DNA of 64,000 nucleotides from Candidatus Sericytochromatia bacterium. Its GTDB lineage: Bacteria; Cyanobacteriota; Sericytochromatia; UBA7694. Below are positions 8,197 to 50,768 of the stretch, one piece after another. A model generated the notes under the pieces. The model was not told where the DNA came from. It did not search any database and saw nothing but the letters and a program-made list of their open reading frames with translations. Each line of letters opens with the position of its first letter. Within the stretch, counting starts at the first letter, position 1. The position numbers and the translations under genes were made by a program. The stretch spans positions 7,778 through 71,777 of the forward strand of contig JADMKE010000008.1 in NCBI GenBank assembly GCA_018780035.1, written 5' to 3'.

Positions 8197-9618
8197 ATGA
8201 GTCAAGAATCGTATCAAGTGATTGTACTGGGCGGTGGCCCCGGTGGCTATGCCGCCGCATTTCTGGCCGCTGATCTGGGCCTCAAAGTCGCCCTGGTCGA
8301 AAAACGGGTCAATCCCGGTGGGGTCTGTCTCTACGAAGGCTGCATTCCCTCCAAGGCTTTTTTGCACGCCGCGGAGCTGATCAACGAAAGCCAACACGCC
8401 GCTGAGTGGGGGATTGAATTTGCCCCACCCAAAATCGACATCGACAAGCTGCGGGCCTGGAAAGACACCAAAGTCGTCAAAGGCCTGACCGGCGGTCTGG
8501 GTCAATTGGCCAAAGCCCGCAAGGTCAAATTTATCCAGGGCACGGGCACGATCCAAGATGCCCACCACCTGCAGGTCGAAACCGCAGAAGGGCCACAAAC
8601 CCTGCACTTTGAACATCTGGTTGTGGCCACGGGTTCAAGCCCCATTGTCTTGCCCTTTTTGCCCAAGTCCCCACGGGTGATGGACTCCACCGCTGCTCTG
8701 GAATTGCCAGATGTCCCCGCACGTCTGTTGGTGCTGGGTGGCGGGTATATTGGTCTGGAAATGGCCACCGTTTACGCCGCATTGGGCTCCAAGGTCACCG
8801 TGGTTGAAATGCTCGACTCGCTCTTGGCGGGGGCCGACGCCGATCTGGTCAAACCCCTGCAAAAGCGCATCGAGAAAAAACTTGAAGCGATTCTGCTCAA
8901 AACCAAAGTCACAGGCGCCAAAGAACAGGGTGAAGAGCTGCTGGTCAGCTTTGAAGGCCCCGATGGCAAAGCCTTTGAACAGACCTTCGACCGGGTGCTG
9001 GTCTCAGTCGGTCGCCGCCCCAATGGGCGTGGCATTGGCCTCGAAAACACAAAAATTGAACTCGACAAACAGGGCTTTATTCCCGTCAATTTACAGCGGC
9101 AGACGGTGGAGCCTTCGATCTACGCGATTGGCGACGTGGCCGGACAGCCGATGCTGGCCCACAAGGCCTCCCACGAAGGCCGCGTGGCCGTCGAAGCCAT
9201 AGCCGGACACAAAGTGGCCTTTGAACCTTACGCCATCCCGGCCGTGGTCTTTACCGACCCCGAGGTCGCCTGGTGTGGTTTAACCGAGCGCGAAGCCCAG
9301 GCCCAAGGCCGCAAAGTCGAAGTTGTCAAATACCCCTGGGCCGCTTCGGGCCGGGCTTTGACCCTCGATCGCACCGAAGGCCTGACCAAGCTGATTGTCG
9401 ACCCCGAAACCGAGCGCATTCTTGGCGTGGGCATTGTTGGCAAAGGGGCAGGAGAACTGATCGCAGAAGCCACCCTGGCCGTCGAAATGGCCGCCCTGGT
9501 CACCGACGTTAAACTGACCATTCACGCCCATCCGACCCTCTCAGAGACCTTTATGGAAGCTGCTGAGATGTACTTTGGGCAGAGTACCCACGTCTACAAA
9601 CCCAAGCGGAACAAATAG
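8197..9618 (+). CDS. lpdA: Dihydrolipoyl dehydrogenase (E3)
   Basis: FAD-binding GGGPGGY, redox-active disulfide GGVCLYEGCIPSK, NAD-binding GGGYIGLE and C-terminal HAHPTLSE dimerisation motif. Starts 3 nt after the aceF stop. Confidence 0.92.
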   Translation: MSQESYQVIVLGGGPGGYAAAFLAADLGLKVALVEKRVNPGGVCLYEGCIPSKAFLHAAELINESQHAAEWGIEFAPPKIDIDKLRAWKDTKVVKGLTGGLGQLAKARKVKFIQGTGTIQDAHHLQVETAEGPQTLHFEHLVVATGSSPIVLPFLPKSPRVMDSTAALELPDVPARLLVLGGGYIGLEMATVYAALGSKVTVVEMLDSLLAGADADLVKPLQKRIEKKLEAILLKTKVTGAKEQGEELLVSFEGPDGKAFEQTFDRVLVSVGRRPNGRGIGLENTKIELDKQGFIPVNLQRQTVEPSIYAIGDVAGQPMLAHKASHEGRVAVEAIAGHKVAFEPYAIPAVVFTDPEVAWCGLTEREAQAQGRKVEVVKYPWAASGRALTLDRTEGLTKLIVDPETERILGVGIVGKGAGELIAEATLAVEMAALVTDVKLTIHAHPTLSETFMEAAEMYFGQSTHVYKPKRNK

Positions 9619-9638
9619 GGTTACCAACACTTTTTACA

Positions 9639-9667
9639 GAGCAGGGCTTACGGGCCTTGCTCTTTTT
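9639..9667 (+). terminator. Rho-independent terminator after lpdA
   Basis: 9-bp stem GAGCAGGGC / GCCTTGCTC (one G-U) with 6-nt loop, followed by TTTTT (9663-9667), 20 nt after the lpdA stop. Confidence 0.6.
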
Positions 9668-9701
9668 GCTGGCATATTTTTTGTTTGTTTCAAAAATATA
9701 T

Positions 9702-9779
9702 GCCAACAAATTCATTGACAATAGATTTGTTGGCAATCATAATAAAGACAGAAAATTTGTTGACAACAAATTTGTTGGC
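9702..9779 (+). promoter_or_regulatory. Operator-like array of inverted ATTTGTTG(GC) half-sites overlapping the promoter and TSS
   Basis: GCCAACAAAT (9702-9711) and ATTTGTTGGC (9725-9734) form a 10-bp inverted repeat bracketing the -35. TTGTTGaCAACAA (9757-9769) and the perfect 14-bp palindrome CAACAAATTTGTTG (9764-9777) sit just downstream of the TSS. The motif ATTTGTTGGC recurs at 9770-9779. Confidence 0.4.
9715..9743 (+). promoter_or_regulatory. Sigma70-type promoter of the island operon
   Basis: -35 TTGACA (9715-9720), 17-nt spacer, -10 CATAAT (9738-9743). Predicted TSS ~9750, 40 nt upstream of the RelA/SpoT-like gene start. Confidence 0.45.
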
Positions 9780-9789
9780 CAAAGAGGTG

Positions 9790-10584
9790 ATGATGTCAGA
9801 TGAAATAAATACAATAGTTGAGCGGTTATTTCCCGAAAGGTTAATAGATCCTAATACTTTTGATCAATGGTGCAGAAGAATCCGCTCAGATATTTTTGGA
9901 GACGCTGCCAATCTTCTAGCTAAATTAGAGAATTGGCTCGAAGAACAAAAAGGAACTCTTAAAGCATCTGAACAGCTCAAAAGGGATTATTGGGAAATTT
10001 TTGGCGGCAATGGTGAAACGTTAATAAAAACACCACAGAGTATACGCTCGAAACTAGCTCGCGATTTCAAAACAGAGAGCATTACAGCTGAAAGAAAAAC
10101 AGAAGAGTTTCTTCGTACGAAAATATTAGAATTTAGTGATCTTGGACGGATAAGAATTGTCACTGATTTTTTTTCTGACACCAGCCTTCTAAAAGAGAAC
10201 ATGTTTGATGCAACTACCAGATTTTTACAAACTTATGAATGCCCCAAAGGAATCAAAGATTTTGTTTTTGATCCCTCAATGCGAGACGGACTGAAAGGAC
10301 ATCGGGCTTTTCAGTTTTCAGTAAGAATTCCATTAGATACAGAAACATTTGGTTTTGAGATTCAACTTATGACACGTTTGCAACACGCTTGGGACAGACA
10401 TAATCATCCTTTTTATGAATGGCAACGAGAAACCCCTAACTGGCAAGGCAATGCCAAGGCTGTTGAACTTGCTGTTAATGATTTTGCTTGCGCTGAAACA
10501 TTACATTTAGTAGATCGACAAGCCGATCAAAATTGGCAAAGTTTAAAAAATTTTCTTCAAGAGGCTAGAAGTACTGATGAATAA
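9790..10584 (+). CDS. RelA/SpoT-domain nucleotidyltransferase (small-alarmone-synthetase-like, candidate toxSAS-type effector)
   Basis: Within ORF 9685..10584 the SD AGAGGTGA lies 5-6 nt before ATG 9790 (MMSDEINT...). The synthetase-fold motifs DLGRIRIVTDFFSD (cf. DIAGIRVICYFxDD), GHRAFQFSV (cf. GYRSLHLIV) and FEIQLMTRLQHAWDRHNHPFY (cf. VEIQIRTxxMxxWAExEHKxxYK) are present. Confidence 0.75.
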   Translation: MMSDEINTIVERLFPERLIDPNTFDQWCRRIRSDIFGDAANLLAKLENWLEEQKGTLKASEQLKRDYWEIFGGNGETLIKTPQSIRSKLARDFKTESITAERKTEEFLRTKILEFSDLGRIRIVTDFFSDTSLLKENMFDATTRFLQTYECPKGIKDFVFDPSMRDGLKGHRAFQFSVRIPLDTETFGFEIQLMTRLQHAWDRHNHPFYEWQRETPNWQGNAKAVELAVNDFACAETLHLVDRQADQNWQSLKNFLQEARSTDE

Positions 10585-12055
10585 AAGTATGTATTTCAGT
10601 ATTATTATCAAAGATACATCCTCTGTCTCAAAAGGAATGGCTATTTGGATTCAATCCTCAAAAGATGAACTTCCTGGCGATAAAATTAAAGAACTTACAA
10701 AAGCGTCTCGAGAACTCAGTCTAATAGAGGGAGAGCAGCTGCAAACAGAGGTTTTAGTAGCATCCCCTACTTCTCTTGATATTCGTCCTATAAGCGAGTA
10801 TCTTTGGGGTGACGGTACACTGAATAGCTCTCGTTTGATTCGCCATCTTCAAGATTATAAATCAGGAAAAAGACCTCACCACTTTTTGCCAAGAGTGGGT
10901 ATTACCATTGTTATGGAAGAAGAGTTTATCGGTAGAAAAAGTGTCTTATCTGAACTCGAAGCCCACATTAAAGCTCATAAATCTTGTCATCTAAGGGCAC
11001 CTCGTCGCTATGGCAAATCCAGTTTACTCGGTATATTATCTACCAAATCAGATAATATAGTTATGCTGGAATTAAGTGATATGAGTACATTATCTGGATT
11101 TTTCAAGACCCTCTTAAGAGCCTGTATGCGTCATACCAAAGCCCAAGATATTCTCTTAGAAACGAAAATATTCCAATCCTGGCCAACTGAAAGTAGTCCA
11201 TCCAACTTTTCTCAAATATTCAATAAGGCCTTTGATGATTTAGAAAAAAAACACCAACACCAATTATTTAAAATAATACTTGAAACAATGGATATTTTAG
11301 CTGAAAATGGACTAGTTCTCTTTATTGATGAATTTAGTCTTTTTCTCAGGGATTTACACGAACATGACCAAGAGCAGTTAATTGTATTTCTTCAAGAGTT
11401 TCATCGACTTCGCACGAAAAAGTCTACGCCATTAGTTACCGTATTTTCAGGAAGTGCAGGGCTTTCCACCTATATGGAATTGTACGGGATGAAAGAGCTA
11501 TTTGACGACCTCATGACCGTAGATGTCTCTCCTATAAGTGCCAGTGAAGCCTACCTGCTTGCTGAAGAGTTGTTTTATGGGATGCAAAAACGTCCGATAC
11601 CAAATGCAATTGAGCGGCTAGTTGAATTTACGGGTATGGAGGAAACCATTCCTTATTTTGTACAGGCTCTGGCATCTTATACGTGTGAACAAGCGGGTTT
11701 AAGAAAGGAAATAACAACAGAAGATGTTGAAGAAGCCTATTATAATCGCCTATTGGGGCCAGCGGGAAATGTCTGTTTCCGTGATTTTATCTTGCGTGAG
11801 CGCACTTACCCTAAGGAATATCGATTGAGTGCATCCAATATACTCAAACACTTATCAAAAATGGCCCCTGCAATTGTAACGGAAGAAGACTTACAAAAGT
11901 TATGCAAAGGAGGATGTGAGTTGAAGAAACTCATGACCTGTTTGGAAGAAGATTACGATATTGTGCCAGAAGGTAGTGGCTGGCGAATGCGTTCCAAAGT
12001 AATAGCTGATCGTTGGCGACTGGGAGAACCTTGGTTGACCACTGGAGGTAAGTAA
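10577..12055 (+). CDS. P-loop ATPase of the Arch_ATPase (PF01637-like) AAA family
   Basis: FIGRKSVLSELEAHIKAHKSCHLRAPRRYGKSSLLGIL (Walker A GKSS) and VLFIDEFSLF (Walker B). The gene overlaps the upstream gene by 8 nt, consistent with translational coupling. An N-terminal ~120-aa extension of unknown function is present. Confidence 0.7.
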   Translation: MNKSMYFSIIIKDTSSVSKGMAIWIQSSKDELPGDKIKELTKASRELSLIEGEQLQTEVLVASPTSLDIRPISEYLWGDGTLNSSRLIRHLQDYKSGKRPHHFLPRVGITIVMEEEFIGRKSVLSELEAHIKAHKSCHLRAPRRYGKSSLLGILSTKSDNIVMLELSDMSTLSGFFKTLLRACMRHTKAQDILLETKIFQSWPTESSPSNFSQIFNKAFDDLEKKHQHQLFKIILETMDILAENGLVLFIDEFSLFLRDLHEHDQEQLIVFLQEFHRLRTKKSTPLVTVFSGSAGLSTYMELYGMKELFDDLMTVDVSPISASEAYLLAEELFYGMQKRPIPNAIERLVEFTGMEETIPYFVQALASYTCEQAGLRKEITTEDVEEAYYNRLLGPAGNVCFRDFILRERTYPKEYRLSASNILKHLSKMAPAIVTEEDLQKLCKGGCELKKLMTCLEEDYDIVPEGSGWRMRSKVIADRWRLGEPWLTTGGK

Positions 12056-15000
12056 TGGCTAGGCACCTCAATTATAATCCGGGCCGCGATTCGATCGAAT
12101 ACCTTGATGCGATTACACACGGAGAAAATCGTTTATATATTCTCGATCAGCTCTTGATCTCCTTGCGAGCCGAAATAGGTCGCCCCAACCATCAACATCA
12201 TCTATTAATTGGGCCCAGAGGAGCAGGAAAAACCCATTTACTCAGACTATTAACGGCAGGACGTATTCCACAAGAAGCAGGCTTGGCTAAAGCTTACTTG
12301 CCTTTGGTAATGCCAGAGGAAACATCTCTACGTACGCCAGGGGACTTACTTTTGAAATTCGTTGAACGGCTGGATAAGATTTTAAGTGATTCATCCCTTA
12401 TCCCAAGTACAGCTCAGCGCGAAGCAAGAGGAATTTGCAGCACAGCTCTCACAACAGCTAAAGCCATTCGCAACCCTCTTGAGCGCTTAAGTATCATGGC
12501 TGAAGCCTTGGATGCTGCAGCATCTACTTTAGGAAAGATTTTACTTCCGATCACTGAAAATATGAATCAAATTTTTTATCTAGGATCACAACGAAGTAGG
12601 CAGAGCACTTTAGCTGAACAATGGGCCTTACGTAGATATTTTCAAGAAACCCCTCATTTATTTTTAATTGCAGCAGCACCCAGTATTTTCGGCACAGTTG
12701 GTGATCCTGGTAAACCATTCTATGATTTTTTTCGTACCCACGAATTACAAGAACTCACCAATAATGAAGTCTTGGAGATTATTCATTTGAGGCTTCAACA
12801 AGAATTTCAAAATCCAAGTAACGATAAGCTCCGCTCTGAACGGGTTCATTGTCTACTTGAAAACTTCCATCAAAAATCCCCTCATTTAAGAGGTCTATTA
12901 ACAATTACTGGTGGACTTCCGCGTTTCACACATCTTATTTATGAAGTAATTGTTGAAACTGATGTTGATCAAGTCTTGGATACGCTCAATCATTTTCTGG
13001 ACGATTTAACTCCTTATTTTCAGACTAGGCTGGATCCTAGTATATTCCCACAAGCGGAAATGGATCTCTTGCATACTTTGGCTTTAGCCCGTGGTCCGCA
13101 ACAACCATCAGAACTTGCAGAAGAACTCTATGGGGTCGGCACCAACGAGATTTCTGAATTGTTGAATCGCTTGCAAGAACGGGGATTAGTCAAACGTGCA
13201 GGCAGACCTGGCGGAAAAGCTGTAACATGGGATCTAACTGAACCGTTATATCGGATTTGGACTCAATTTCGAAATTACCCAGATGAGAAAAATCTGTATA
13301 GATTCTTAAGTAATTTTGTATCTTTATTATTTAATATTGATGAAATAAAAAACGAAATAGATCAATTATCAGAAAAATTATCAATTTTATCAGAAAAAGA
13401 CCCTGGATGGAAACCCTATAAATCCAGGAAGAATCTTTTAGATGAGGCTTATTCAAAACTTATCTCAGAAACACAAAAACTGATAAATGATTTCATAAAA
13501 AAAATAAATAATGAAGAAACTGATTTACAAAAAACAATAAAAGAAATTCGCACAGAAAGCATAAATAACCCTAACAATATAATTTACCAATATAAGCTAG
13601 CATTGATAATTTTTAAATTAATCAGTAGCACACACGACAGTAACACTCAAAGTGAAAGTATTTTATTATTAGATGAATTAAGACAATTAAGCCATAATTT
13701 CCCTAAAGATAATTATCTAAAAGAAATATTATCTAAAAGTATTTTTAATATAATTGTAGATTTTATTAAAAATGAAGAAAATATAAAAAATTATACATCT
13801 CTAATAAATGAATTAAAAATAATGAGTGAAAAAAATACGAAAAACTTAACTATAGCAAAAGAATTCAGTAAAGCACTAGTAAATTTAACATATCATTATT
13901 CAAGAACAGAGGAAATAGATCCAATAAAAAATATTATGAATGATTTAGATATATTGAGTAAAAAATATCCTCTAGAGACATTTTTTCGTGAAAGCTTAGC
14001 TAATGCTTTTGTTAACTCAATATACATTTCAGTAATAACAAAAGATAAAAATTTATGCCTTTATTTTTTAAATGAGCTAAGAAAATTAAGTTCAAATCAC
14101 CCAAAAGAAATGATTTTGCATGAAAATCTCTCTACAGCATTGATGAACTCTATCAATGATCCTATGGACATATATGATATAAAAGATTATTTTCAGTTTT
14201 TAAATGAGTTACAGAACTTACATCAATCATATGTCAATGAAAAATCAATATTAGAAAATCTAGCAAGAGGTATTGTAAATGTCATTTCTAAACTTGGGAA
14301 GAAAAATAGAATTAATGAAGCTAATAAATTCTTAAAAAAAATAGAAGAATTAGCAAGTAAAAACCAAGAAAATAATGATTTACAATATATTTTATCTCAA
14401 TCAATTTTCAACATAATAATTTCTTTAGTTAAAAATAAAAATGTAAAAAAATCTTTAAAATACTTAGAAAAGTTGACTTTATTAAATAAAGTAGCAGTAA
14501 ATCCATTAATCCAGCACACTTTAGCAAAAGGTCTTTTTAATATAATCACAGAACTAGGAGATCTCGGCGAATTCAATATTGCGTTTAAATATTTTGAAGA
14601 ATTGCGCGAAATATCAATAAAAAATTCATTAAATTATAATATTATAGAAAATACGACAAAAGCATTAGTTAATTTAACTTATGATACTGCAAATAATAAA
14701 ATGGAAACTGAATGTTTATTATTTTTAAAAGAATTACATTTCTTGTATTTAGAACATTCTAATGAGTCATTTATACAACAAGGTTTAGCAAAAGGATTAA
14801 TCAGTGCCATTTATGGAATGATAAAAGTAGACAATTTTGATAAATATATGGTTTTATTAAATGAATTAATAACAATAAATTATAAACATTTTAATAATGA
14901 TTCTGTTCAAAAAATTACAATTCAAGGTTTTTTTAAAATAATATCTATAACAACCCGCAACTCTAACATCAGGTATTACCAAAAATTCTTAAATGCGCTA

Positions 15001-15297
15001 TTTGAATGGTTTAATCAATACTCTGATGAAAAAACCAGTGAAACCGTAAATAGTGTTCTAACAGTACATTGCATCTTATTGCTTTCACAAATGAAATCAG
15101 GAAACTCAGTCTCTGCTAAGGAGAATATGCAATGGCTGCAAACAAATATCCCGCATCAACTAACCAATCATCTTCAACCGATGATTTTAGCAATGAATAC
15201 ACTCGAAAAAGGAGAAGATCAAGCACTAGCACGTGAACCAGAAGAAATGCGACGTGTAGTTCGACTTATCTTAGAGGAGGCTGAAAAAAAACAATAA
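12055..15297 (+). CDS. STAND-like P-loop NTPase with wHTH and >=11 C-terminal TPR-like 34-aa repeats
   Basis: Start ATG overlaps the upstream stop (TAATG). Walker A LLIGPRGAGKTHLLRLL and Walker B-like HLFLIAAAP. A winged-helix segment (ELAEELYGVGTNEISELLNRLQERGLVKRAG) follows. From ~aa 420, tandem ~34-aa repeats (L.KG.FNII..L....N......YF.EL..LS..N) fill the rest, encoded by an extremely AT-rich (Asn/Lys/Ile) region at 13300-15000. Confidence 0.7.
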   Translation: MARHLNYNPGRDSIEYLDAITHGENRLYILDQLLISLRAEIGRPNHQHHLLIGPRGAGKTHLLRLLTAGRIPQEAGLAKAYLPLVMPEETSLRTPGDLLLKFVERLDKILSDSSLIPSTAQREARGICSTALTTAKAIRNPLERLSIMAEALDAAASTLGKILLPITENMNQIFYLGSQRSRQSTLAEQWALRRYFQETPHLFLIAAAPSIFGTVGDPGKPFYDFFRTHELQELTNNEVLEIIHLRLQQEFQNPSNDKLRSERVHCLLENFHQKSPHLRGLLTITGGLPRFTHLIYEVIVETDVDQVLDTLNHFLDDLTPYFQTRLDPSIFPQAEMDLLHTLALARGPQQPSELAEELYGVGTNEISELLNRLQERGLVKRAGRPGGKAVTWDLTEPLYRIWTQFRNYPDEKNLYRFLSNFVSLLFNIDEIKNEIDQLSEKLSILSEKDPGWKPYKSRKNLLDEAYSKLISETQKLINDFIKKINNEETDLQKTIKEIRTESINNPNNIIYQYKLALIIFKLISSTHDSNTQSESILLLDELRQLSHNFPKDNYLKEILSKSIFNIIVDFIKNEENIKNYTSLINELKIMSEKNTKNLTIAKEFSKALVNLTYHYSRTEEIDPIKNIMNDLDILSKKYPLETFFRESLANAFVNSIYISVITKDKNLCLYFLNELRKLSSNHPKEMILHENLSTALMNSINDPMDIYDIKDYFQFLNELQNLHQSYVNEKSILENLARGIVNVISKLGKKNRINEANKFLKKIEELASKNQENNDLQYILSQSIFNIIISLVKNKNVKKSLKYLEKLTLLNKVAVNPLIQHTLAKGLFNIITELGDLGEFNIAFKYFEELREISIKNSLNYNIIENTTKALVNLTYDTANNKMETECLLFLKELHFLYLEHSNESFIQQGLAKGLISAIYGMIKVDNFDKYMVLLNELITINYKHFNNDSVQKITIQGFFKIISITTRNSNIRYYQKFLNALFEWFNQYSDEKTSETVNSVLTVHCILLLSQMKSGNSVSAKENMQWLQTNIPHQLTNHLQPMILAMNTLEKGEDQALAREPEEMRRVVRLILEEAEKKQ

Positions 15298-15323: not shown

Positions 15324-16461
15324 TCAGGCAGCCCTATGGAAGTCATGATGATCGAAGCCGGAGGGAAGCGTTATAGTGATGAATGAAATTCCAAAGGGAT
15401 GCCTTATGGTGTTCAATTTTTTTTTCGAAAAAGAAAGCGTTTTCCGAATAATCCTGGATATGCGTTGACGAAAAGTATTATTAAGGCGCTCAATATAGCA
15501 GGTTTTTCCTTTTTCTTTTCCCACTGCTTTGTAGCGTTTCGGAGATAGGACCAGTGCATAGGCCTCCCAAAAATCTGTATGGATAAAAGCACAGCAATGC
15601 TGTCTCCATTGAATGGGTCAACGAAGCCCAGACCCGCTTGTTTTCTGCCTTGGGAGACTGGTACTCAGGGTCTTTGAGCAATGGATTCACCATTTGCGCT
15701 GCCGTACGTTTATGCGCTTGTGTGGTATAAACTGCTGCCACCGTAGCCAAGCGCTTTCGATTGCTCTTTTCACCCCGAGATAAGCGCTTTTCTAGCTTTT
15801 GGGAACGGGCTTTGTTCTGGGTCTGTGCAGTCAGACCTTCAAAACGCATGTTGACGCCCTTGCCATCAAAACTCATGACCAAATATTCTTCAGATTTGAG
15901 TTCGGGAGGCAGTGATTGGGCGTAAAACGCCTCAAAATCCACCATCGCACCCTCAACGCACTCAAGGGCTTGGCGCTTGGGAATATGCCCAGGATACAAA
16001 GGCAAAAGCTGCTCTGAGGCTGAATCGTAAGAAAGGTCAGCAACTTTGTGGCAGATTGTTTTCTGAAGCAGGAAACTGTAGCTGCTTGTCGGCAGGTTTA
16101 ACTCACTGTCGAGTGGGTGCTGAGAGCTTTGCCCATACTGGCTCAATGCGGGACGTTTGACGCCGACCTTGCCAAAGAGGGTCTGTAATTGTCGTTTGTG
16201 CAAGCGTTTGGCTGCAGGAGTTTTGGCTTGAGCGCTCAAGGTTACTTTATTGAGCTGGTCTTGAATGATCTGGCGCAGAACCTCTGGCCCTTGTGTTTTC
16301 ACATGGCTTTCGAGTTGGTAGACATCCCACTGGGGCTCCAAATGGCTACATAATTGTGTGAATTTTTCGATGGAGGCTTCAAATCCGGTCAAAGGCAGGT
16401 TATTATTGAGCATAAGTAGTTTGGTTTTTGGTTTCACCAAATACCATTTTTTTTTGCTCAT
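15324..16461 (-). mobile_element. Degenerate or frameshifted transposase gene (IS remnant)
   Basis: Two overlapping minus-strand ORFs in different frames (15490..16461, 323 aa; 15324..15524, 66 aa). The shorter contains CYIERLNNTFRQRISRIIRKTLSFSKK, resembling the C-terminus of IS1-type InsB (…[24 protein letters not shown]). The longer has a DGKGV.M / VAAVYT core. No inverted repeats were identified. Confidence 0.5.
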
Positions 16462-35651: not shown

Positions 35652-37148
35652 ATGCTAAAATCGCGTCAACTGTTCGCTCTCTCTTTGGCTTGCACTTTAA
35701 TGGCCTGCCAGACAGCTCCATTGGAAAGCCCCAACATACCTAAAAAGCAGGAAACACAGCCCCTCTCTGATACAAGCAAGCAGAATCCAGCAATTATACA
35801 ACCCTCTGCTTCACCCGTGATTGCGGCAAGCGCCAACCCAATCGTTAAAAACACACTTAGCAAATACAGTCAGGCCTTACAGGCTTATCAAAAAGAAAGC
35901 CTCAAATCCACTGTGACCATAGCCCCTGGTTTAAATACAGCTTCACTCACGGCCCCGAGCCAAAATACCGCACCGTCACCCATGCCTTCCGGAACAAGTG
36001 CGCCAACTGAACTCGGTAATAATAGTGCTTCAAACAGCAGTTCGGGGATTTTTCCTGAGCCAACTCCCGAAGACTTAAAAAAATTAATTCAACAGTCTTA
36101 TGAATTAATGCTCAAACAAGTTGCTGAATTAGAGGCAACCCAACCTCCCGAAGCCTTGGCAAAGCAACACACAAGGCTATTACAAGGCCTGAAACAAAAT
36201 AAAAGTAGAAGTGAACGATTATTAAAAGAAATCGAAGGGAAAACACTTACCGTCAGTGAGTTTCGTTCTCTTAGTGAAAAAATCATCAAAGATGAAGGTC
36301 TCTCACTGAGTGAAAATGCCAAACAAAGCCAGGAACTATCTGAACTCCAATTTGAAATCATGCGCATGGCATTGGCTGAGGAGACCCAAAGTAAATATCC
36401 GGGCAATGCTTTAGAAGAAAGTGCTTATGCACCAGCATTGATACCTATTTGGAAAAAATACATTTACGCATTAACAGACTCTTTTGTTTTAGAGAACCCA
36501 TTAAATGGGTCTCTCTATTTTCGCGAAAATGAAAAGTTAAAACAAATTCAGCCAAAGATAAATGAATTCATTCAGGCCATAGAACGTCTCAATCCGCCAA
36601 CAAAATACACAGAATTGCACTACACCTTATTGGCGCATGGCAAACAAAGTCAAACACTCATTGAATCTCTTTTAAAAAATCCCCTGTCGGTCCAAAACCC
36701 ACAGGCATTAATCAAAGAACTGTTTGGTAATTTTGAATTGCTCTACAATTTTGGCCTTGTGAGCCAGAGTAGTTATATACTCCAAAAAGAAGTCCTTTTA
36801 GACCAAACCAAAGAGTTAGAAAAACAGGCCAAAGAGCATGACATGCAAAAACTCACTGAAGCCCCCCGCTTCAAAGGTGATTTTAAAGCCTTGCGGACAA
36901 GCAGTGAGGGCATTCAGCTGACTTGGACGACCCCACCGGATGGCACAACAACACTGATTATTTATCGCAATGAGCCCGAAAAAATTTTCAAATCCCTGAC
37001 CCAAATTGCCACCCTTGAGCCAGGAACAACCAACTATTCTGATCAAGCCTCTTTAGCCAGTGGAAAAGCCTATCAATACACACTCTCTTTTCAAAATGCC
37101 AAAGGAGAAATTCTGGCGGCTTTAGAAAGTAGCCAAGTGGTGTTCTAA
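35652..37148 (+). CDS. Hypothetical lipoprotein with C-terminal FN3-like domain
   Basis: Lipobox LACTLMACQT, an S/P/T-rich linker and a helical middle region. C-terminus GIQLTWTTPPDGTTTLIIYRNEP…YQYTLSF is FN3-like. Confidence 0.6.
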   Translation: MLKSRQLFALSLACTLMACQTAPLESPNIPKKQETQPLSDTSKQNPAIIQPSASPVIAASANPIVKNTLSKYSQALQAYQKESLKSTVTIAPGLNTASLTAPSQNTAPSPMPSGTSAPTELGNNSASNSSSGIFPEPTPEDLKKLIQQSYELMLKQVAELEATQPPEALAKQHTRLLQGLKQNKSRSERLLKEIEGKTLTVSEFRSLSEKIIKDEGLSLSENAKQSQELSELQFEIMRMALAEETQSKYPGNALEESAYAPALIPIWKKYIYALTDSFVLENPLNGSLYFRENEKLKQIQPKINEFIQAIERLNPPTKYTELHYTLLAHGKQSQTLIESLLKNPLSVQNPQALIKELFGNFELLYNFGLVSQSSYILQKEVLLDQTKELEKQAKEHDMQKLTEAPRFKGDFKALRTSSEGIQLTWTTPPDGTTTLIIYRNEPEKIFKSLTQIATLEPGTTNYSDQASLASGKAYQYTLSFQNAKGEILAALESSQVVF

Positions 37149-46890: not shown

Positions 46891-49167
46891 ATGTTCAAAC
46901 AGATCTTTCAGCAGGACGGTTATAAACCCCGCGAGGTAGAGCACGCACTCACACCACGGGCCCTGGTCTTTTTGACTGTGATGGTGGCGATTCTCGCGAC
47001 AGCCTTTACAGCCCAAAGCCCCCTGTTTTTGCCCAGTGCGGCAATCAGCGTGACCCTGGGGGGCAGTTGGCTGAGTTGGAAGCGGCGTGAGGCCAAAAAT
47101 TGGTGGATCAAACTGATCCTGGCCCTGCTGATGCTGGTGGCCCTGGCCAATTTTATGTTTGAGATCAGCGATAACCCCTTTGATGCCCGTGTGCCCCTGG
47201 CCCATCTGCTGATCTGGCTACAAGTGCTTCACAGCTTCGACCTGCCCCGGCGCAAAGACCTCTTTTATTCGCTTTGGGTGGCCCTGGTGCTGATCAGTGT
47301 GGCCGCCACACTCAGCCGCGAAGCCAATTTTAGCTTGTTTTTAGTCGCCTATTCTTTTTTCAGTCTGCTCAGCATCTATTACAGCCACCTCTCCAGCCAG
47401 CATGTCAAAGCCCCGCCGATCCGGCTCAGCCTCAAAATCCTGCTGCCTGTGATGGGCCTGACCCTGCTCGGTGCCCTGCTGGCGTTTGTGGTCATGCCCC
47501 GCTATTCAGGTCTCAAAATCCAGAGTTTTCCCGTTTCGATTCAAATGAAAAACCTGCCCTTTTTTCAGGGCGAGATCAAAAACCGGGCTTATCAAAACCG
47601 CAATACCCAAAACAGCTCAGGCAATAATCAGGTGCAGAGCAAACGCGATAAATTTGATCCAATGGCCTATTACGGCTTTAGTACCAAACTCGATTTAAAT
47701 TACCGGGGAAAACTGTCAGATCAGGTGGTAATGCGGGTTCAAAGCAACCGTCCGGCCTATTGGCGCGGCATGTCTTTTGATGTCTACAACGGCCAGAGCT
47801 GGAGCATGACCCACCCCATGCGCCTCAAGCGGCTGGGCCAAGGTCAAAACCCGATCTGGGTCAGGCAGACAGCCCAACTCAAACAAAATGTGGTGCCACG
47901 CGAGCGCCTGATTCAAACCTATTATATTGAAAAAGATCAGAGCAATTTGGTCTTTCATGCCGCTTATGCCGAGCTGGTCTATTTCCCCACCACCTATCTG
48001 CTAATGGACCTCTACGGCGGCCTGCGCAGCCCGATTGAACTCTTTGAGGGCACGGTCTACACAGTCATCTCCGAGGTGCCGATCTTTGACACAAAAAAAT
48101 TGGCGAATATCCGCTGGGAACAGGTCTTAAACCCCATGCCCAGCCAAGAGCAACCCAGCGAATACAAACAGATTCCCGCCCGTCTGCCTGCGCGGGTTAC
48201 TGCCCTGGCAAAAAGCTGGAGCAACAACAGCGAGGGGCCTTATCAGGCTTTGCGCAACATCGAGCAAAAGCTCAAACAAAACTACCCCTACAATCTGGAT
48301 ATCCCCGAATTTCCAGAAAAAGCAGACACCGTCGATTATTTTCTCTTTCAACAAAAGTCGGGCTATTGTGAACATTTTGCCTCGGCCTTTGTGCTAATGG
48401 CGCGCAGCTTGGGCCTGCCCGCCCGCTTTGTGACGGGTTATACCTCTGGGCAATACAATCCCATCACCGGCTATTTTGAGGTGCGCAGCAGCGACGCCCA
48501 CGGCTGGGCCGAGGTCTATTTCCCGCATCAGGGCTGGGTGCCTTTTGATCCCACCCCCGGCTATGTGGCGTATATCGCCGAACCCAGCGTGAACAAAGAA
48601 AACAACGCCAACCAACTGGGCAAGTTTCTGATGCGCTTTTTGCCCGAGGGCCTCAAAAAAGCCCTCGAAAGTGGACTCAATGCTGGCTTGCAATTGCTGG
48701 CCAATGGCTTTAAAGCCCTGAACCAGTTCTTGCAGGTGGTCTCTCCCGCCCAGCTCACCATCTGGGTCGCGGGCCTGATCGGCCTGATTCTGGCGGGGGT
48801 CTATTTGAATTCTCTGCGTGTCAAACGCAGCGTGGCCGCCACGCTCTGGCAACCGGCTTATCGCCAAGAGAGCGCCCGCCAAGCCATCGTCGCGTCCTAC
48901 TTGGCTTGGCTTGAAAAAGCCGAAGCCCGTTTGGGAATTGCGCCGCCCCTGGGGGCCACACCACGGGAGCGGGTTCAGGGTATTTTGGCAGAACGTGAGA
49001 GTGAAACACTACAGCCTGCTTTGGGGGCCTTAACTGAACATTATTATGAGCTGCGCTATAATCCACAGCCGGTGACACCTGAGCGCGTGGCTGCCTGTGA
49101 GGCGCTTCTGCGCGAAGTGGAGCGGGAATTGGGGCAATGGGAAACCGTCAAAGAACTCCAGGCATAG
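46891..49167 (+). CDS. Transglutaminase-like membrane protein (TgpA-type: DUF3488 + transglutaminase core + DUF4129)
   Basis: ORF 46684..49167. The likely start is ATG 46891 (MFKQIF…) before six TM helices. The catalytic core is SGYCEHFASAFVLMARSLGLPARFVTGY … DAHGWAEVYFPHQGWVPFDPTPG (Cys-His-Asp), with a C-terminal TM/DUF4129-like region. Confidence 0.8.
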   Translation: MFKQIFQQDGYKPREVEHALTPRALVFLTVMVAILATAFTAQSPLFLPSAAISVTLGGSWLSWKRREAKNWWIKLILALLMLVALANFMFEISDNPFDARVPLAHLLIWLQVLHSFDLPRRKDLFYSLWVALVLISVAATLSREANFSLFLVAYSFFSLLSIYYSHLSSQHVKAPPIRLSLKILLPVMGLTLLGALLAFVVMPRYSGLKIQSFPVSIQMKNLPFFQGEIKNRAYQNRNTQNSSGNNQVQSKRDKFDPMAYYGFSTKLDLNYRGKLSDQVVMRVQSNRPAYWRGMSFDVYNGQSWSMTHPMRLKRLGQGQNPIWVRQTAQLKQNVVPRERLIQTYYIEKDQSNLVFHAAYAELVYFPTTYLLMDLYGGLRSPIELFEGTVYTVISEVPIFDTKKLANIRWEQVLNPMPSQEQPSEYKQIPARLPARVTALAKSWSNNSEGPYQALRNIEQKLKQNYPYNLDIPEFPEKADTVDYFLFQQKSGYCEHFASAFVLMARSLGLPARFVTGYTSGQYNPITGYFEVRSSDAHGWAEVYFPHQGWVPFDPTPGYVAYIAEPSVNKENNANQLGKFLMRFLPEGLKKALESGLNAGLQLLANGFKALNQFLQVVSPAQLTIWVAGLIGLILAGVYLNSLRVKRSVAATLWQPAYRQESARQAIVASYLAWLEKAEARLGIAPPLGATPRERVQGILAERESETLQPALGALTEHYYELRYNPQPVTPERVAACEALLREVERELGQWETVKELQA

Positions 49168-49192
49168 CTCGGCTGATTCATTCAGTTTAAAT

Positions 49193-49783
49193 TTAGGGGC
49201 TTGGTGTGCTGCTGGGAGTTGGGGTTGGTTCAGTGGGTTTGGAGAGATGAAGGGTGATAGCGTTTGATATGCAGTTTGGATATTTTTTTCCACAGACAGC
49301 ATCAGGTTCAGTCTTCAGGTCAAAGTTTTGTTTTCCCAACACATCACCGTTGAGGTTTCTTAGAGTCACAGCAACTTGTTTAGAATGCCCCACTCTTCTA
49401 AAAAGAAACTGATTAATATTTATAGGCTTTGAATCGTTATACTTAGTAGGCGGTTTTGTAGGAGATGAAGAGGGCGTTGTTGGAACTATCTCCTCAAATA
49501 GTCCCGAGCAAGTCCCTTCTATTGTTTGCATATTAACGACCTCTTTGACTGGCTCTCCTCGTTGTGAAGTAGGCACAAAGAAACATTTTTTTTTGACTGT
49601 TTGAGTATCCAGCTTGAGTTCAAGTTCAATGCTCTCTTTAACGGGAGGGTTTAGATCAATGCTGAGAAAAGGTCCTTCTCCATGACAACCCCCACACCCA
49701 ACTTTTTTACTTTCAGTCTCGCAGCCAATCAAAAGCCCCAAAAGTAAAATCAAAAACCCTCCCAGTATAATCTCTTGTCTCAT
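49193..49783 (-). CDS. Small Cys-motif lipoprotein with PT-rich tail (paralog A)
   Basis: Lipobox LLIGCETE, CGGCHGEGPFLSIDLNPPVKESIELELK, …KYPNCISNAITLHLSKPTEPTPTPSSTPSP*. It is a paralog of 50054..50653. Confidence 0.6.
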   Translation of the reverse strand: MRQEIILGGFLILLLGLLIGCETESKKVGCGGCHGEGPFLSIDLNPPVKESIELELKLDTQTVKKKCFFVPTSQRGEPVKEVVNMQTIEGTCSGLFEEIVPTTPSSSPTKPPTKYNDSKPININQFLFRRVGHSKQVAVTLRNLNGDVLGKQNFDLKTEPDAVCGKKYPNCISNAITLHLSKPTEPTPTPSSTPSP

Positions 49784-50053
49784 TTAATGCCTCTTAAATT
49801 TAAGTCAACAAATTAACAGATAATGAACCCGACCAGTGTTAAAAACCATCTTTTTAGCATAACATCCAATAACTGTTAACTTATCTTTCCTATGTACTTA
49901 TACCAAATGGGAGATATAATTCGCCATTAACGCATACTCATCCATGTTCGTTTAAAGCAAGGAATAACAAGGTTCGGCCATTAGTTGTTTGGCGTGTTTC
50001 CCATCATTTTGGTATTACCTTATTTGTGTGTTGATGAGATCCTTTATTAAAAT

Positions 50054-50653
50054 TTAGGGGCTTGGCGTGCTACTGGGAGTGGGCGTTGGTTCTGCTGGTT
50101 TCGATAAATGAAGGGTGACTTCTGTTGATGTGCAGTTCGGATATTTGGGACTACACCCAGGATATATTTCAGTGCTTAGCTTAAAGTTCTGCTGAGCCAA
50201 CACATCACCAGCAAGGTTTCTTAGAATTACTTGAATTTCCTTTTCTTTGATACCCCAGAAAACAAGTTCATTAATATCAATACGTTGAATGTCTTCTGGT
50301 TTCAAAAATACAGGGAGTGGCAGTTTATGGGACGAAGGTGTTGGGGATGGCGAAGGTGCTGTTGATATACTGGTGCCTGAACAATAAAAGCCCATGCCCC
50401 CCTGTATGTCATCTATTACTTTTGATGATTCCTGTGGATGGAAATTACATTTACGTGTCATGATCGTTTTTGTTTTGTCCTTAAGTTCAATCTCCACGCT
50501 TTCTTTAACAGGCGGGTCCAAACGTATATTTAAAAACTGCCCCATGCCCTGACATGGAGCACACTGCATTAGCTCTTGTTCAGATACGCCACATGAAAAT
50601 AAAAAGGTAAACAGAATACAAAGAGAACTTCGCCAAAACATCTTAAAATTCAC
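50054..50653 (-). CDS. Small Cys-motif lipoprotein with PT-rich tail (paralog B)
   Basis: Lipobox LFSCGVSE, CAPCQGMGQFLNIRLDPPVKESVEIELK, …KYPNCTSTEVTLHLSKPAEPTPTPSSTPSP*. Its 3' end (50044-50100) is near-identical in DNA to 49187-49240. Confidence 0.6.
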   Translation of the reverse strand: MNFKMFWRSSLCILFTFLFSCGVSEQELMQCAPCQGMGQFLNIRLDPPVKESVEIELKDKTKTIMTRKCNFHPQESSKVIDDIQGGMGFYCSGTSISTAPSPSPTPSSHKLPLPVFLKPEDIQRIDINELVFWGIKEKEIQVILRNLAGDVLAQQNFKLSTEIYPGCSPKYPNCTSTEVTLHLSKPAEPTPTPSSTPSP

Positions 50654-50768
50654 TTTGATACCTCACATGAACACTCCTGTTCAACCTCAATGACTATTCC
50701 TGGTTCAGTACAACTTGCGTGATCGTGACAAAGATAATGCCCGTTTGAGTGAGCAAAGCATCAGTCCC

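What the first reader, a model, noticed from the sequence alone, without database searches (positions are those of the whole stretch)
9702..9790. Dense operator-like array of ATTTGTTG(GC) inverted half-sites wrapped around the island promoter
Five copies of the half-site lie in alternating orientation within 78 bp. GCCAACAAAT and ATTTGTTGGC bracket the -35 TTGACA. A perfect 14-bp palindrome CAACAAATTTGTTG and the overlapping TTGTTGaCAACAA sit at +5 to +30 relative to the predicted TSS. This is the geometry of a tightly repressed promoter, as expected for a toxic effector operon. No obvious repressor gene is in the operon, so the regulator may be host-encoded or one of the island proteins; the STAND protein has a wHTH.
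Basis: seen in the sequence. Interest (0 to 1): 0.55.

Follow-up and report, generated by a model that had tools for sequence, protein, structure and literature searches.

The report
Conserved operator array on island promoter
The repeated ATTTGTTG motif is a real regulatory DNA element: 14-bp palindromes set 15 bp apart around the promoter of a rare three-gene operon, which travel with that operon across distant bacterial phyla and are most likely bound by a DNA-binding domain inside one of the operon's own ATPases to keep the operon repressed.

Summary
Five exact ATTTGTTG copies lie in 9704-9777 and only four elsewhere in 64 kb. They overlap a near-consensus promoter, TTGACA-17-CATAAT. The array reads better as four 14-bp palindromes (consensus CAACAAATTTGTTG) in a 15-bp register. 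The -35 hexamer is formed at the junction of two palindromes.

The operon encodes g1, a RelA/SpoT-like synthetase; g2, an AAA+ ATPase with a winged-helix (WH) domain; and g3, an ORC/STAND-like ATPase with a MarR-like wHTH and helical repeats. I recovered about 25 homologous operons from metagenome-assembled genomes labelled as several unrelated lineages. All carry the same kind of phased palindromes in the same place. Palindrome density is 9.3/kb upstream of g1 against 0.027/kb elsewhere.

Divergent operons carry altered palindromes. Two paralogous systems in one MAG have different ones. A kinase-linked variant that keeps only the g2/g3-like pair still has the palindrome. A host-encoded regulator is therefore unlikely.

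g3's wHTH is the best candidate binder. It matches ArsR/MarR repressors, and among the protein segments tested it covaries best with the operator. g2's WH helix is acidic and invariant.

Repression and binding are inferred, not shown. I found no description of the motif or the system. I rate it a new variant of a known kind, with moderate to high interest.

The parts
9638..9663 (+). Intrinsic terminator of the upstream host gene lpdA (8197-9618). It marks the left edge of the low-GC island.
   Evidence: Terminator scan, Pfam hits for lpdA, GC profile.
9665..9674 (+). Possible extra, degenerate half-site TTTGCTGGCA. It forms an 18-nt inverted repeat with 9693-9710. The same TTTGCTGGCA variant is used as a half-site in L001 and L004.
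   Evidence: Inverted repeat I2, related loci. Weak, and not counted in the array.
9704..9717 (.). Operator unit P1, CAACAAATTCATTG. The outer half is perfect. The inner half is degenerate and supplies the first bases of the -35 hexamer.
9715..9720 (+). -35 hexamer TTGACA, formed at the P1/P2 junction (...TTG-A-CAA...).
   Evidence: Promoter scan, 11 of 12 consensus positions. The same junction -35 is the best-scoring promoter in 16 of the 26 operons scanned, this window included.
9719..9732 (.). Operator unit P2, CAATAGATTTGTTG. It fills most of the 17-bp spacer.
9738..9743 (+). -10 hexamer CATAAT. The transcription start is predicted near 9750 (inference).
9749..9762 (.). Operator unit P3, CAGAAAATTTGTTG, at about -1 to +13 relative to the predicted start. 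It lies 45 bp (3 x 15) from P1.
   Evidence: (direct repeat D1, spacing 45).
9764..9777 (.). Operator unit P4, the perfect palindrome CAACAAATTTGTTG, lying between the predicted start site and the Shine-Dalgarno sequence.
9783..9795 (+). Shine-Dalgarno AGAGG and the likely g1 start codon ATG at 9793.
   Evidence: Read from the sequence. Alignment with homologues puts the start here.
9793..10584 (+). g1, a 263-aa RelA/SpoT-type small-alarmone-synthetase-like protein and the presumed effector. No HTH is recognisable.
   Evidence: Its profile matches the small alarmone synthetases YwaC and YjbM (the RelP/RelQ group) in the PDB at E 1e-6 to 2e-5. JGI names and Pfam PF04607 on homologues.
10577..12055 (+). 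g2, 492 aa. It has an N-terminal alpha/beta domain (residues 1-100), an AAA+ domain with lid, and a C-terminal winged helix (413-471) whose third helix is acidic and invariant (LMTCLEEDYDL).
   Evidence: AF2 model with pLDDT 91. Foldseek best matches are 2fna and 2qen, then ORC/Cdc6 and RuvB. Alignment. No wHTH match in the PDB.
12055..15297 (+). g3, 1080 aa. It is an ORC/Cdc6/STAND-like AAA+ ATPase followed by a MarR/ArsR-like wHTH and then long helical (TPR-like) repeats of very low GC.
   Evidence: Pfam, PDB profile search, AF2 model with pLDDT 87, Foldseek, GC profile.
13051..13242 (+). The part of g3 encoding the wHTH (residues 333-396). The recognition helix is 363-375 and the basic wing reads KRAGRPGGK. 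This is the proposed operator-binding domain.
   Evidence: Matches ArsR/MarR structures at E 6.5e-5 to 1e-3. 30 of 35 family members hit MarR_2. Covaries with the operator class.

Best explanation
The array is the self-contained operator of a mobile three-gene operon (RelA/SpoT-like g1, AAA+/WH g2, ORC/STAND-like g3).

Shown:
- It consists of 14-bp palindromes (consensus CAACAAATTTGTTG) in a strict 15-bp register.
- The first pair straddles the promoter, so its junction forms the -35 TTGACA and its second member fills the spacer.
- The second pair sits between the predicted start site and the ribosome-binding site.
- This layout is conserved in homologous operons.

Inferred:
- A protein encoded by the operon binds the palindromes as a dimer, with neighbouring dimers cooperating. 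The most likely binder is g3, through the MarR/ArsR-like winged helix that follows its ATPase module.
- Binding blocks RNA polymerase at the -35 and spacer and blocks clearance at +1 to +28. The operon is thereby held at a low, self-limited level.
- When g3 is activated, through nucleotide exchange and oligomerisation after its repeat domain senses a trigger, the winged helix would be pulled off the DNA and the operon would be derepressed.
For: 1. Clustering far above chance, on a near-consensus promoter.
2. All 21 loci found through g1 keep the g1-g2-g3 order wherever the contig allows it to be seen, and they keep palindromes of this family just upstream of g1. There are 49 hits in 5.3 kb upstream against 4 in 147 kb elsewhere. 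Five further operons show the same arrangement.
3. The register is conserved. Successive units are 15 bp apart in 13 of 21 cases and 30 or 43-46 bp apart in 6. In 16 of the 26 operons scanned the best-scoring sigma70-like promoter has an exact TTGACA -35 at a palindrome junction, with a 17-18-bp spacer filled by the next palindrome.
4. The source records are labelled as unrelated lineages: Sericytochromatia, Beta-, Gamma-, Delta- and Alphaproteobacteria, Polyangiaceae and Thermoanaerobaculia.
5. Divergent operons have altered palindromes: CAACAGATCTGTTG, TAGACAAATTTGTCTA, CGACAAATTTGTCG and CAGCAATATTGCTG. Two paralogous systems in one MAG (L009 and L011) have different ones.
6. There is no separate regulator gene. 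The upstream gene in the window is lpdA.
7. A distant variant (L023) has a kinase gene instead of g1 and a g2-like protein that lacks the N-terminal domain. It still has CAACCAATTTGTTG immediately upstream of the g2-like/g3-like pair.
8. g3's wHTH matches ArsR/MarR repressors and 30 of 35 family members hit MarR_2. Its recognition helix and wing differ between operator classes. Operator distance correlates best with the g3 wHTH (Mantel r 0.53, p 0.0015) and not with the g2 WH (r 0.10, not significant).
9. g2's WH helix is acidic and invariant and shows no wHTH similarity in the PDB.
Against: - There are no binding or expression data of any kind.
- In ORC- and STAND-type ATPases a winged helix after the ATPase is part of the core module and often does not bind DNA. 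A palindrome needs a dimer, and I did not show how g3 would dimerise.
- The covariation is confounded by phylogeny. It rests on 18 loci with half-sites that I assigned by hand, and whole g1 also correlates (r 0.41).
- The class-A recognition helix (TNEVSELL) carries two acidic residues.
- Only 64 kb of the host genome was available, so other copies of the operator elsewhere in that genome cannot be excluded.
Confidence: 0.6

Rival explanations
1. The operator is real and system-specific, but the binder is g2 or an obligate g2-g3 complex. This would resemble the pair of Orc1/Cdc6 initiators that sit together on origin DNA, rather than g3 acting alone.
For: - g2 also has the AAA+/lid/winged-helix layout, with ORC/Cdc6 and RuvB among its best structural matches, including 2qby, a Cdc6/Orc1 heterodimer on DNA.
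- g2-like and g3-like genes always occur together, including in the distant L023 and probably L028. Gene context therefore cannot separate them.
Against: - The third helix of g2's WH is acidic (CLEEDYD) and invariant across operator classes.
- The profile of this domain finds no DNA-binding wHTH in the PDB.
- Its divergence does not track operator divergence (r 0.10).
Confidence: 0.15
2. The phased palindromes are mainly a docking or assembly platform for the ORC/STAND-like ATPases rather than a simple repressor site. The DNA would hold the sensor in its resting state, or nucleate its oligomer. Any transcriptional effect would be secondary, or even activating.
For: - A 15-bp register puts neighbouring dimers about 1.4 helical turns apart, on nearly opposite faces of the helix (my inference from the spacing). 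This would suit a protein filament or helical assembly better than simple side-by-side dimers.
- The proteins are structurally closest to DNA-loaded initiators.
- Arrays hold 2 to 4 or more units.
Against: - The -35 hexamer always lies at a palindrome junction and the spacer is always filled by a palindrome. This is what promoter occlusion predicts.
- The simplest systems have only two units, exactly over the -35 and spacer (L017, L018, L019, L011).
- No palindromes occur elsewhere in the loci.
Confidence: 0.12
3. A host-encoded, widely conserved DNA-binding protein (a global regulator or nucleoid protein) recognises the AT-rich palindromes. The operon has merely evolved to plug into it.
For: - The ACAAATTTGT core is AT-rich and similar in many hosts.
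- No stand-alone repressor gene is present.
Against: - The same motif is found with operons in MAGs labelled as unrelated lineages.
- The flanking specificity bases differ between two systems in a single MAG.
- No further copies exist in the 64-kb window or in 147 kb of flanking DNA in the related loci, apart from a duplicate of the operon's own 5' end.
Confidence: 0.06
4. The repeats are not a protein operator. They would instead be a 5'-UTR RNA structure, or the terminal repeats or recombination site of the mobile element that brought in the island.
For: - P3 and P4 are transcribed if the start site is near 9750.
- The array lies exactly at the left edge of the low-GC island, and a transposase fragment lies at the right edge.
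Against: - The predicted 5'-UTR fold is no better than shuffled sequence (z = -0.33).
- In many relatives all units lie upstream of the -10 hexamer and would not be transcribed.
- No matching repeats occur at the right end of the island.
- No recombinase was found among the operon genes in any locus, and the transposase remnant beside this island is of an unrelated IS family.
- The position relative to the promoter and start codon is fixed across loci.
Confidence: 0.03

Closest known systems
MarR at marO and related MarR/ArsR-type wHTH repressors. The marO layout (site I over the -35/-10 region, site II over the ribosome-binding site) is recalled from memory.
   Same: - A MarR/ArsR-like wHTH by sequence.
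- Palindromic sites.
- One set over the -35 and spacer and a second between the start site and the ribosome-binding site.
- The regulator is encoded in the operon it controls.
   Different: - The wHTH is not a ~150-aa stand-alone dimer. It is embedded after the AAA+ module of a 1080-aa ORC/STAND-like protein.
- The sites are 14 bp in a strict 15-bp tandem register.
- No small-molecule ligand domain is evident.
Tandem overlapping LexA boxes in colicin promoters (recalled from memory): two palindromic boxes, overlapping by a base or two, repress a lethal operon cooperatively.
   Same: Abutting palindromic operators with a period of about 15 bp over the promoter of a potentially lethal operon. 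This suggests very tight, cooperative repression.
   Different: - The sequence is unrelated to the LexA box.
- The regulator is carried by the operon rather than by the host.
- There is no evident link to the SOS response.
Dedicated regulators of anti-phage operons: BrxR/CapW, CapH/CapP, CapK/CapS and RptR (the last two turned up; the others are recalled from memory).
   Same: A repressor bound to inverted repeats at the promoter of a potentially toxic immune-type operon, moving together with the operon.
   Different: - Those are separate small regulator genes beside the operon they control. Here no such gene exists, and the DNA-binding domain appears to sit inside the sensor ATPase itself.
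- Whether this system is a defence system at all is unproven.
Archaeal Orc1/Cdc6 on origin recognition boxes (2v1u, 2qby)
   Same: - AAA+/lid/winged-helix proteins. These are the best or near-best structural matches of g3 and g2.
- They bind repeated, partly dyad-symmetric elements that, as I recall, often lie just upstream of their own gene.
   Different: - There is no sequence-level family membership. Only the Walker A stretch hits the ORC-CDC6-like Pfam model.
- The locus has no helicase or other replication context.
- g3 carries long TPR-like repeats, as STAND sensors do.
STAND-family transcription factors such as MalT and AfsR/SARP-LAL (recalled from memory)
   Same: An NTPase with C-terminal repeats and a DNA-binding function in a single protein that couples ligand sensing to transcription.
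   Different: - Those use a separate terminal LuxR or SARP DNA-binding domain and act as activators of metabolic regulons.
- Here the candidate domain is the internal wHTH, the target is the protein's own operon, and the operon carries a RelA/SpoT-like effector.
toxSAS toxin-antitoxin modules and the fused CapRel defence protein (recalled from memory)
   Same: - g1 has the small-alarmone-synthetase fold.
- Autoregulated promoters are usual for toxin operons.
   Different: - No small antitoxin gene is present.
- The partners are two large ATPases.
- g1 does not reach the Pfam RelA_SpoT threshold in this window.

Membership tests
Promoter-overlapping repressor operator (autoregulated operon) | A sigma70-type promoter with the repeated sites overlapping the -35 hexamer, the spacer or the start site | tested here: met
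   TTGACA-17-CATAAT at 9715-9743, with P1/P2 over the -35 and spacer and P3/P4 downstream of the -10.
Promoter-overlapping repressor operator (autoregulated operon) | Conservation of the sites, and of their position, upstream of orthologous operons | tested here: met
   - About 25 homologous operons carry phased palindromes upstream of g1.
- The enrichment is roughly 340-fold over the rest of the loci.
- The -35 hexamer lies at a palindrome junction in 16 of the 26 operons scanned, this window included.
Promoter-overlapping repressor operator (autoregulated operon) | A protein demonstrably binds the sites and lowers transcription | not testable with these tools
   Needs EMSA or footprinting and reporter assays.
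MarR/ArsR-type wHTH repressor with palindromic operator | A wHTH domain with significant similarity to MarR/ArsR families | tested here: met
   - g3 residues 326-396 match ArsR/MarR chains at E 6.5e-5 to 1e-3.
- 30 of 35 family members hit MarR_2, with a best E-value of 3.6e-8.
- In the window protein itself the hit is below Pfam's gathering score (22 bits against 27).
MarR/ArsR-type wHTH repressor with palindromic operator | A small stand-alone homodimer whose dimer interface is formed by helices flanking the wHTH | tested here: not met
   The wHTH is internal to a 1080-aa AAA+/repeat protein. How it dimerises is unknown. I therefore file it as 'works like' these repressors, not as a member.
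ORC/Cdc6/STAND-type AAA+ ATPases with a winged helix | A P-loop AAA+ core followed by a lid and a winged-helix domain (plus C-terminal repeats in STAND proteins) | tested here: met
   - AF2 models with pLDDT 91 for g2 and 87 for the g3 N-terminal part.
- Best matches are 2fna, 2qen, Orc1, Cdc6, CED-4, Apaf-1 and NLRs.
- TPR matches in g3 homologues.
- TM-scores are modest (0.3-0.5), so I did not assign either protein to a particular clade.
Known anti-phage defence systems (PADLOC-DB v2) | Proteins match the models of a named system | tested here: not met
   Only weak, partial hits: g1 to PDC-S33 at 1.4e-6 over about 100 aa; g2 to PDC-S27 and SspC, and g3 to mad8, at about 1e-4. No literature match was found.
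Dedicated defence-operon regulators (BrxR/CapW, CapH/CapP, CapK/CapS, RptR) | A separate small regulator gene adjacent to the operon | tested here: not met
   - The gene upstream in the window is lpdA with its own terminator.
- In the related loci fetched with gene calls, the genes upstream of g1 are unrelated to one another.
- The operon order g1-g2-g3 leaves no room for an extra gene.
RelA/SpoT homologue (small alarmone synthetase / toxSAS-like) effector | Synthetase-fold sequence similarity, including the conserved basic motif and the catalytic region | tested here: met
   - The g1 family profile matches the small alarmone synthetases YwaC and YjbM (the RelP/RelQ group) at E 9e-7 to 2e-5.
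- One homologue carries PF04607, and JGI names several homologues as RelA/SpoT-type.
- Activity and toxicity were not tested.
Mobile-element terminal repeats or recombination site | Matching repeats at both ends of the element and an associated recombinase or transposase that would use them | tested here: not met
   - No copy lies at the right end of the island.
- The only transposase is a truncated ISKra4-family fragment.
- The operon genes include no recombinase in any locus.

The most novel reading that the evidence does not exclude
An ORC/STAND-like immune-type sensor (g3) acts as its own operator-bound repressor. In the resting state its internal MarR-like winged helix sits on a 15-bp-phased array at its own promoter, so the DNA acts as a tether and co-inhibitor. 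When the repeat domain senses a trigger, nucleotide-driven oligomerisation withdraws the winged helix from the DNA. That one step both switches on the RelA/SpoT-like effector, through the g2 adaptor, and derepresses the operon, giving a built-in feed-forward loop. Each lineage, including paralogues in one genome, would have evolved a private operator code to avoid cross-talk.
Probability: 0.25. Interest if true: 0.75.

Novelty: new variant of a known kind. Interest (0 to 1): 0.6.

Why it matters
How bacteria keep potentially lethal NTPase-controlled effector systems silent yet ready is an open question. The known answers are separate small regulators encoded beside the operon.

Here the comparative data point to a portable operator whose most likely reader is a domain inside the sensor ATPase itself. 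Sensing and transcriptional control would then sit in one protein.

The element is compact (about 75 bp). Natural specificity variants exist, and two orthogonal versions occur in one genome, so a binding code could be tested directly. It could also serve as a set of orthogonal repressor-operator parts.

The work also flags a rare three-gene system that I could not find described: about 80 protein clusters among 5.8 billion.

Tried and rejected
- **Motif as a by-product of AT-rich DNA.** Rejected. The most AT-rich 2 kb of the window has no exact copy, and the other four copies are isolated.
- **5'-UTR RNA hairpin.** Rejected. The fold is no better than shuffled sequence, and in many relatives the units lie upstream of the -10 hexamer.
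- **Mobile-element ends.** Rejected. There are no matching repeats at the other end of the island and no recombinase among the operon genes.
- **g1 as the binder.** Rejected. The whole protein is accounted for by the synthetase fold, and the kinase variant L023 keeps the palindrome without g1.
- **The g2 N-terminal domain as the binder.** Rejected. It is absent in L023, which still has the palindrome.
- **A named defence system.** PADLOC, NCBIfam and Pfam gave only weak or generic hits.
- **Literature.** Searches for the palindrome and for the gene combination found nothing relevant.
- **Other collections.** The operator and g1 relatives were absent from viral contigs, plasmids and E. coli genomes.
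- **Very distant g3 relatives.** At 23-27% identity (L026-L028) they showed no recognisable palindromes. The link between operator and g3 family cannot be followed beyond about 30% identity.
- **Second promoter.** The second TTGACA, at 9759-9764, has no -10 hexamer at the right distance, so I do not propose a second promoter (my reading of the sequence).
Full report
**1. The observation**

It holds these elements:
- GCCAACAAAT at 9702-9711
- TTGACA at 9715-9720
- ATTTGTTGGC at 9725-9734
- CATAAT at 9738-9743
- ATTTGTTGAC at 9755-9764
- the perfect palindrome CAACAAATTTGTTG at 9764-9777
- ATTTGTTGGC at 9770-9779
- AGAGG and then ATG at 9793

The octamer ATTTGTTG occurs five times in 9704-9777 and four times in the rest of the 64-kb window. 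The whole-window expectation is 4.6. The other four copies are isolated. The only other 14-mer within two mismatches of the palindrome lies inside an ORF. The most AT-rich part of the window, 13-15 kb at 23-29% GC, contains no exact copy. Composition therefore does not explain the cluster.

The promoter scan gives TTGACA-17-CATAAT, matching 11 of 12 positions, on the + strand. It lies directly after the intrinsic terminator of the upstream gene at 9638-9663.

**2. A better description of the array**

The repeat finder shows a 27-nt direct repeat 45 bp apart, and 17-nt inverted arms centred on the -35 hexamer. Read against the related loci, the unit is a 14-bp palindrome with consensus CAACAAATTTGTTG, repeated in a 15-bp register:
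- P1 9704-9717
- P2 9719-9732
- a degenerate slot that holds the -10 hexamer
- P3 9749-9762
- P4 9764-9777

The junction between two units, ...TTTGTTG-A-CAACAAA..., spells TTGACA. The -35 hexamer is therefore built into the operator, and the second unit fills the spacer. In P1 and P2 the outer halves are perfect and the inner halves are degenerate.

**3. What the array belongs to**

The window comes from a contig of a Candidatus Sericytochromatia MAG. The array sits at the left edge of a low-GC island. The island lies between lpdA and a truncated ISKra4-family transposase gene. It carries three overlapping genes.

- **g1 (9793-10584)** is a RelA/SpoT-type small-alarmone-synthetase-like protein. 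Its family profile matches the small alarmone synthetases YwaC and YjbM (the RelP/RelQ group) at E 1e-6 to 2e-5.
- **g2 (10577-12055)** folds with high confidence into four parts: an N-terminal alpha/beta domain, an AAA+ core, a lid and a C-terminal winged helix. It is closest to the archaeal ATPases 2fna and 2qen, then to ORC/Cdc6 and RuvB.
- **g3 (12055-15297)** has an AAA+ module followed by a wHTH at residues 333-396 and long helical repeats. Its structural neighbours are DNA-bound archaeal Orc1, ORC/Cdc6, CED-4, Apaf-1 and NLRs.

None of the three belongs to a named defence system in PADLOC. The families are rare, with 74 and 83 clusters among 5.8 billion for g1 and g2.

**4. Comparative evidence**

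Scans of the genome and metagenome collections with the g1 alignment returned 22 loci, 21 of which keep the upstream region. Wherever the contig allows it to be seen, they keep the order g1-g2-g3. All carry palindromes of the same family directly upstream of g1.

Palindromes within three mismatches of the consensus number 49 in 5.3 kb of upstream sequence and 4 in 147 kb elsewhere. That is 9.3 against 0.027 per kb. One of the four is a partial duplicate of the operon's own 5' end in L011.

Five further operons, reached through g3 homologues, show the same arrangement. Successive units are 15 bp apart in 13 of 21 cases, and 30 or 43-46 bp apart in six more.

In 16 of the 26 operons scanned, this window included, the best-scoring sigma70-like promoter has an exact TTGACA -35 at a palindrome junction, with a 17-18-bp spacer filled by the next palindrome. 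L018, for example, reads TTGACA-17-TATACT. The closest relatives, like the window, add a second pair between the predicted start site and the ribosome-binding site.

The source records are labelled Sericytochromatia, Beta-, Gamma-, Delta- and Alphaproteobacteria, Polyangiaceae and Thermoanaerobaculia.

**5. Who reads the operator**

Three observations argue for a binder encoded by the operon rather than by the host.
- The motif travels with the operon across unrelated hosts.
- Divergent operons carry systematically altered palindromes: CAACAGATCTGTTG in L010, L024 and L031; TAGACAAATTTGTCTA in L009 and L021; CGACAAATTTGTCG in L011; CAGCAATATTGCTG in L029.
- L009 and L011 come from the same MAG and have different flanking bases.

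No separate regulator gene exists.

g1 is fully accounted for by the synthetase fold. A distant variant, L023, is informative. It has a Ser/Thr kinase gene in place of g1, and its g2-like protein lacks the N-terminal domain. It still has CAACCAATTTGTTG in the gap just upstream of the g2-like/g3-like pair. The operator therefore goes with the ATPase pair.

Between the two ATPases, g3 is the better candidate.
- Its wHTH matches ArsR and MarR repressors in the PDB at E 6.5e-5 to 1e-3.
- 30 of 35 family members hit Pfam MarR_2.
- It has a basic wing.
- Its recognition helix differs between operator classes: TNEVSELL in class A, SxNAVxTx for the ATCT-centred sites, and VR(T/G)xVxNY for the GAC...GTC sites.

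By contrast, the third helix of g2's winged helix is acidic and invariant (CLEEDYD), and its profile finds no wHTH in the PDB.

I also ran an exploratory Mantel test on 18 operons. Operator distance correlates best with the g3 wHTH (r 0.53, p 0.0015). The correlation is weaker with g1 (0.41) and the g3 AAA+ part (0.32), and absent for g2's winged helix (0.10, not significant). This test is confounded by phylogeny and uses half-sites that I assigned by hand. It supports the model but does not prove it.

**6. Mechanism proposed**

The following are shown:
- a near-consensus promoter embedded in phased palindromes
- conservation of that layout across homologous operons
- operator variants that go with protein variants

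The following are inferred:
- Dimers of g3's wHTH, possibly with g2, occupy neighbouring palindromes cooperatively. They occlude the -35 and spacer and block the region from +1 to +28, so the operon represses itself.
- Activation of the ATPase would release the DNA and derepress the operon.

The layout of two site sets, one over the promoter and one over the ribosome-binding-site region, resembles MarR at marO. The abutting palindromes resemble the double LexA boxes of colicin operons. Both comparisons are from memory.

**7. Alternatives considered**

- A g2 or g2-g3 binder remains possible.
- A role as an assembly platform rather than a plain repressor site is suggested by the 15-bp register, which puts neighbours on nearly opposite faces of the helix.
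- A host factor is unlikely, for the reasons given in section 5.
- An RNA structure is not supported (z = -0.33).
- Mobile-element ends are not supported.

**8. Novelty**

I found no paper containing the palindrome and none describing this gene combination. Known regulators of immune-type operons are separate small genes (one search lists CapK/CapS and RptR). Here the likely DNA reader is inside the sensor ATPase. The system and operator are absent from the viral, plasmid and E. coli collections.

I rate the finding a new variant of a known kind: an autoregulatory operator, with an unusual embedded regulator and an unusual strict 15-bp tandem register. Whether the operon is a defence system remains open. 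So do whether g1 is toxic and whether g3 binds the sites.

Noticed in passing
window 13400-15297 (C-terminal half of g3): The helical-repeat part of g3 has 23-29% GC, against 38-42% for the rest of the island and about 54% for the host. g3 homologues range from 552 to 1424 aa, and in many loci the match to the window protein covers only the first ~430-600 residues. This suggests that the sensor-like repeat region is exchanged or evolves very fast.
   Followed up: partly
window 15490-16461 (- strand): A truncated ISKra4-family transposase gene lies just downstream of the island. It scores 100 bits against a cut-off of 205 and covers profile positions 30-239 of 422. It may be a remnant of how the island arrived.
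   Followed up: partly
window 9757-9795: The public annotation gives g1 as 275 aa. That implies a TTG start at 9757, inside operator units P3/P4. Alignment with homologues and the AGAGG Shine-Dalgarno sequence favour ATG at 9793, giving 263 aa.
   Followed up: yes
L009 and L011 (both from MAG CBDUYN01): One MAG carries two paralogous copies of the three-gene system. Their operators share the ACAAATTTGT core but differ in the flanking bases, TAGAC...GTCTA against CGAC...GTCG. This looks like insulation against cross-talk.
   Followed up: partly
L011:4050-4300: A near-identical partial duplicate of the promoter region lies 2.8 kb upstream of the intact operon. It has a single palindrome and the first codons of g1, interrupted by a stop codon.
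   Followed up: partly
L023:407-5039: A distant variant has a Ser/Thr protein kinase gene, then a palindrome (CAACCAATTTGTTG), then a g2-like ATPase without the N-terminal domain, then a 552-aa g3-like protein with a MarR-type wHTH. The g2 N-terminal domain may therefore be the adaptor for the RelA/SpoT-like effector.
   Followed up: partly
L033:4001-6611: Here g3 is split into three ORFs of 369, 84 and 400 aa, and g1 also looks disrupted. This copy is probably decaying, yet it still has two perfect-register palindromes.
   Followed up: no
window 9665-9710: An 18-nt inverted repeat (TTTGCTGGCATATTTTTT / AAAATATATGCCAACAAA, 89% complementary) links the tail of the lpdA terminator to the first half-site. 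TTTGCTGGCA may be an extra weak half-site, or part of an UP-element-like AT-rich tract.
   Followed up: no
window 36000-37000 and 49000-51000: Two further low-GC stretches (40-42% GC) lie in a window of roughly 54% GC. They may be other acquired islands. I did not examine them beyond listing the ORFs at 48.5-53 kb.
   Followed up: no
L024 and L025: In two related operons the island lies next to a fumarase (Lyase_1/FumaraseC_C) gene, whereas in the window it follows lpdA. The insertion sites seen so far sit beside housekeeping genes rather than in recognisable defence islands.
   Followed up: no
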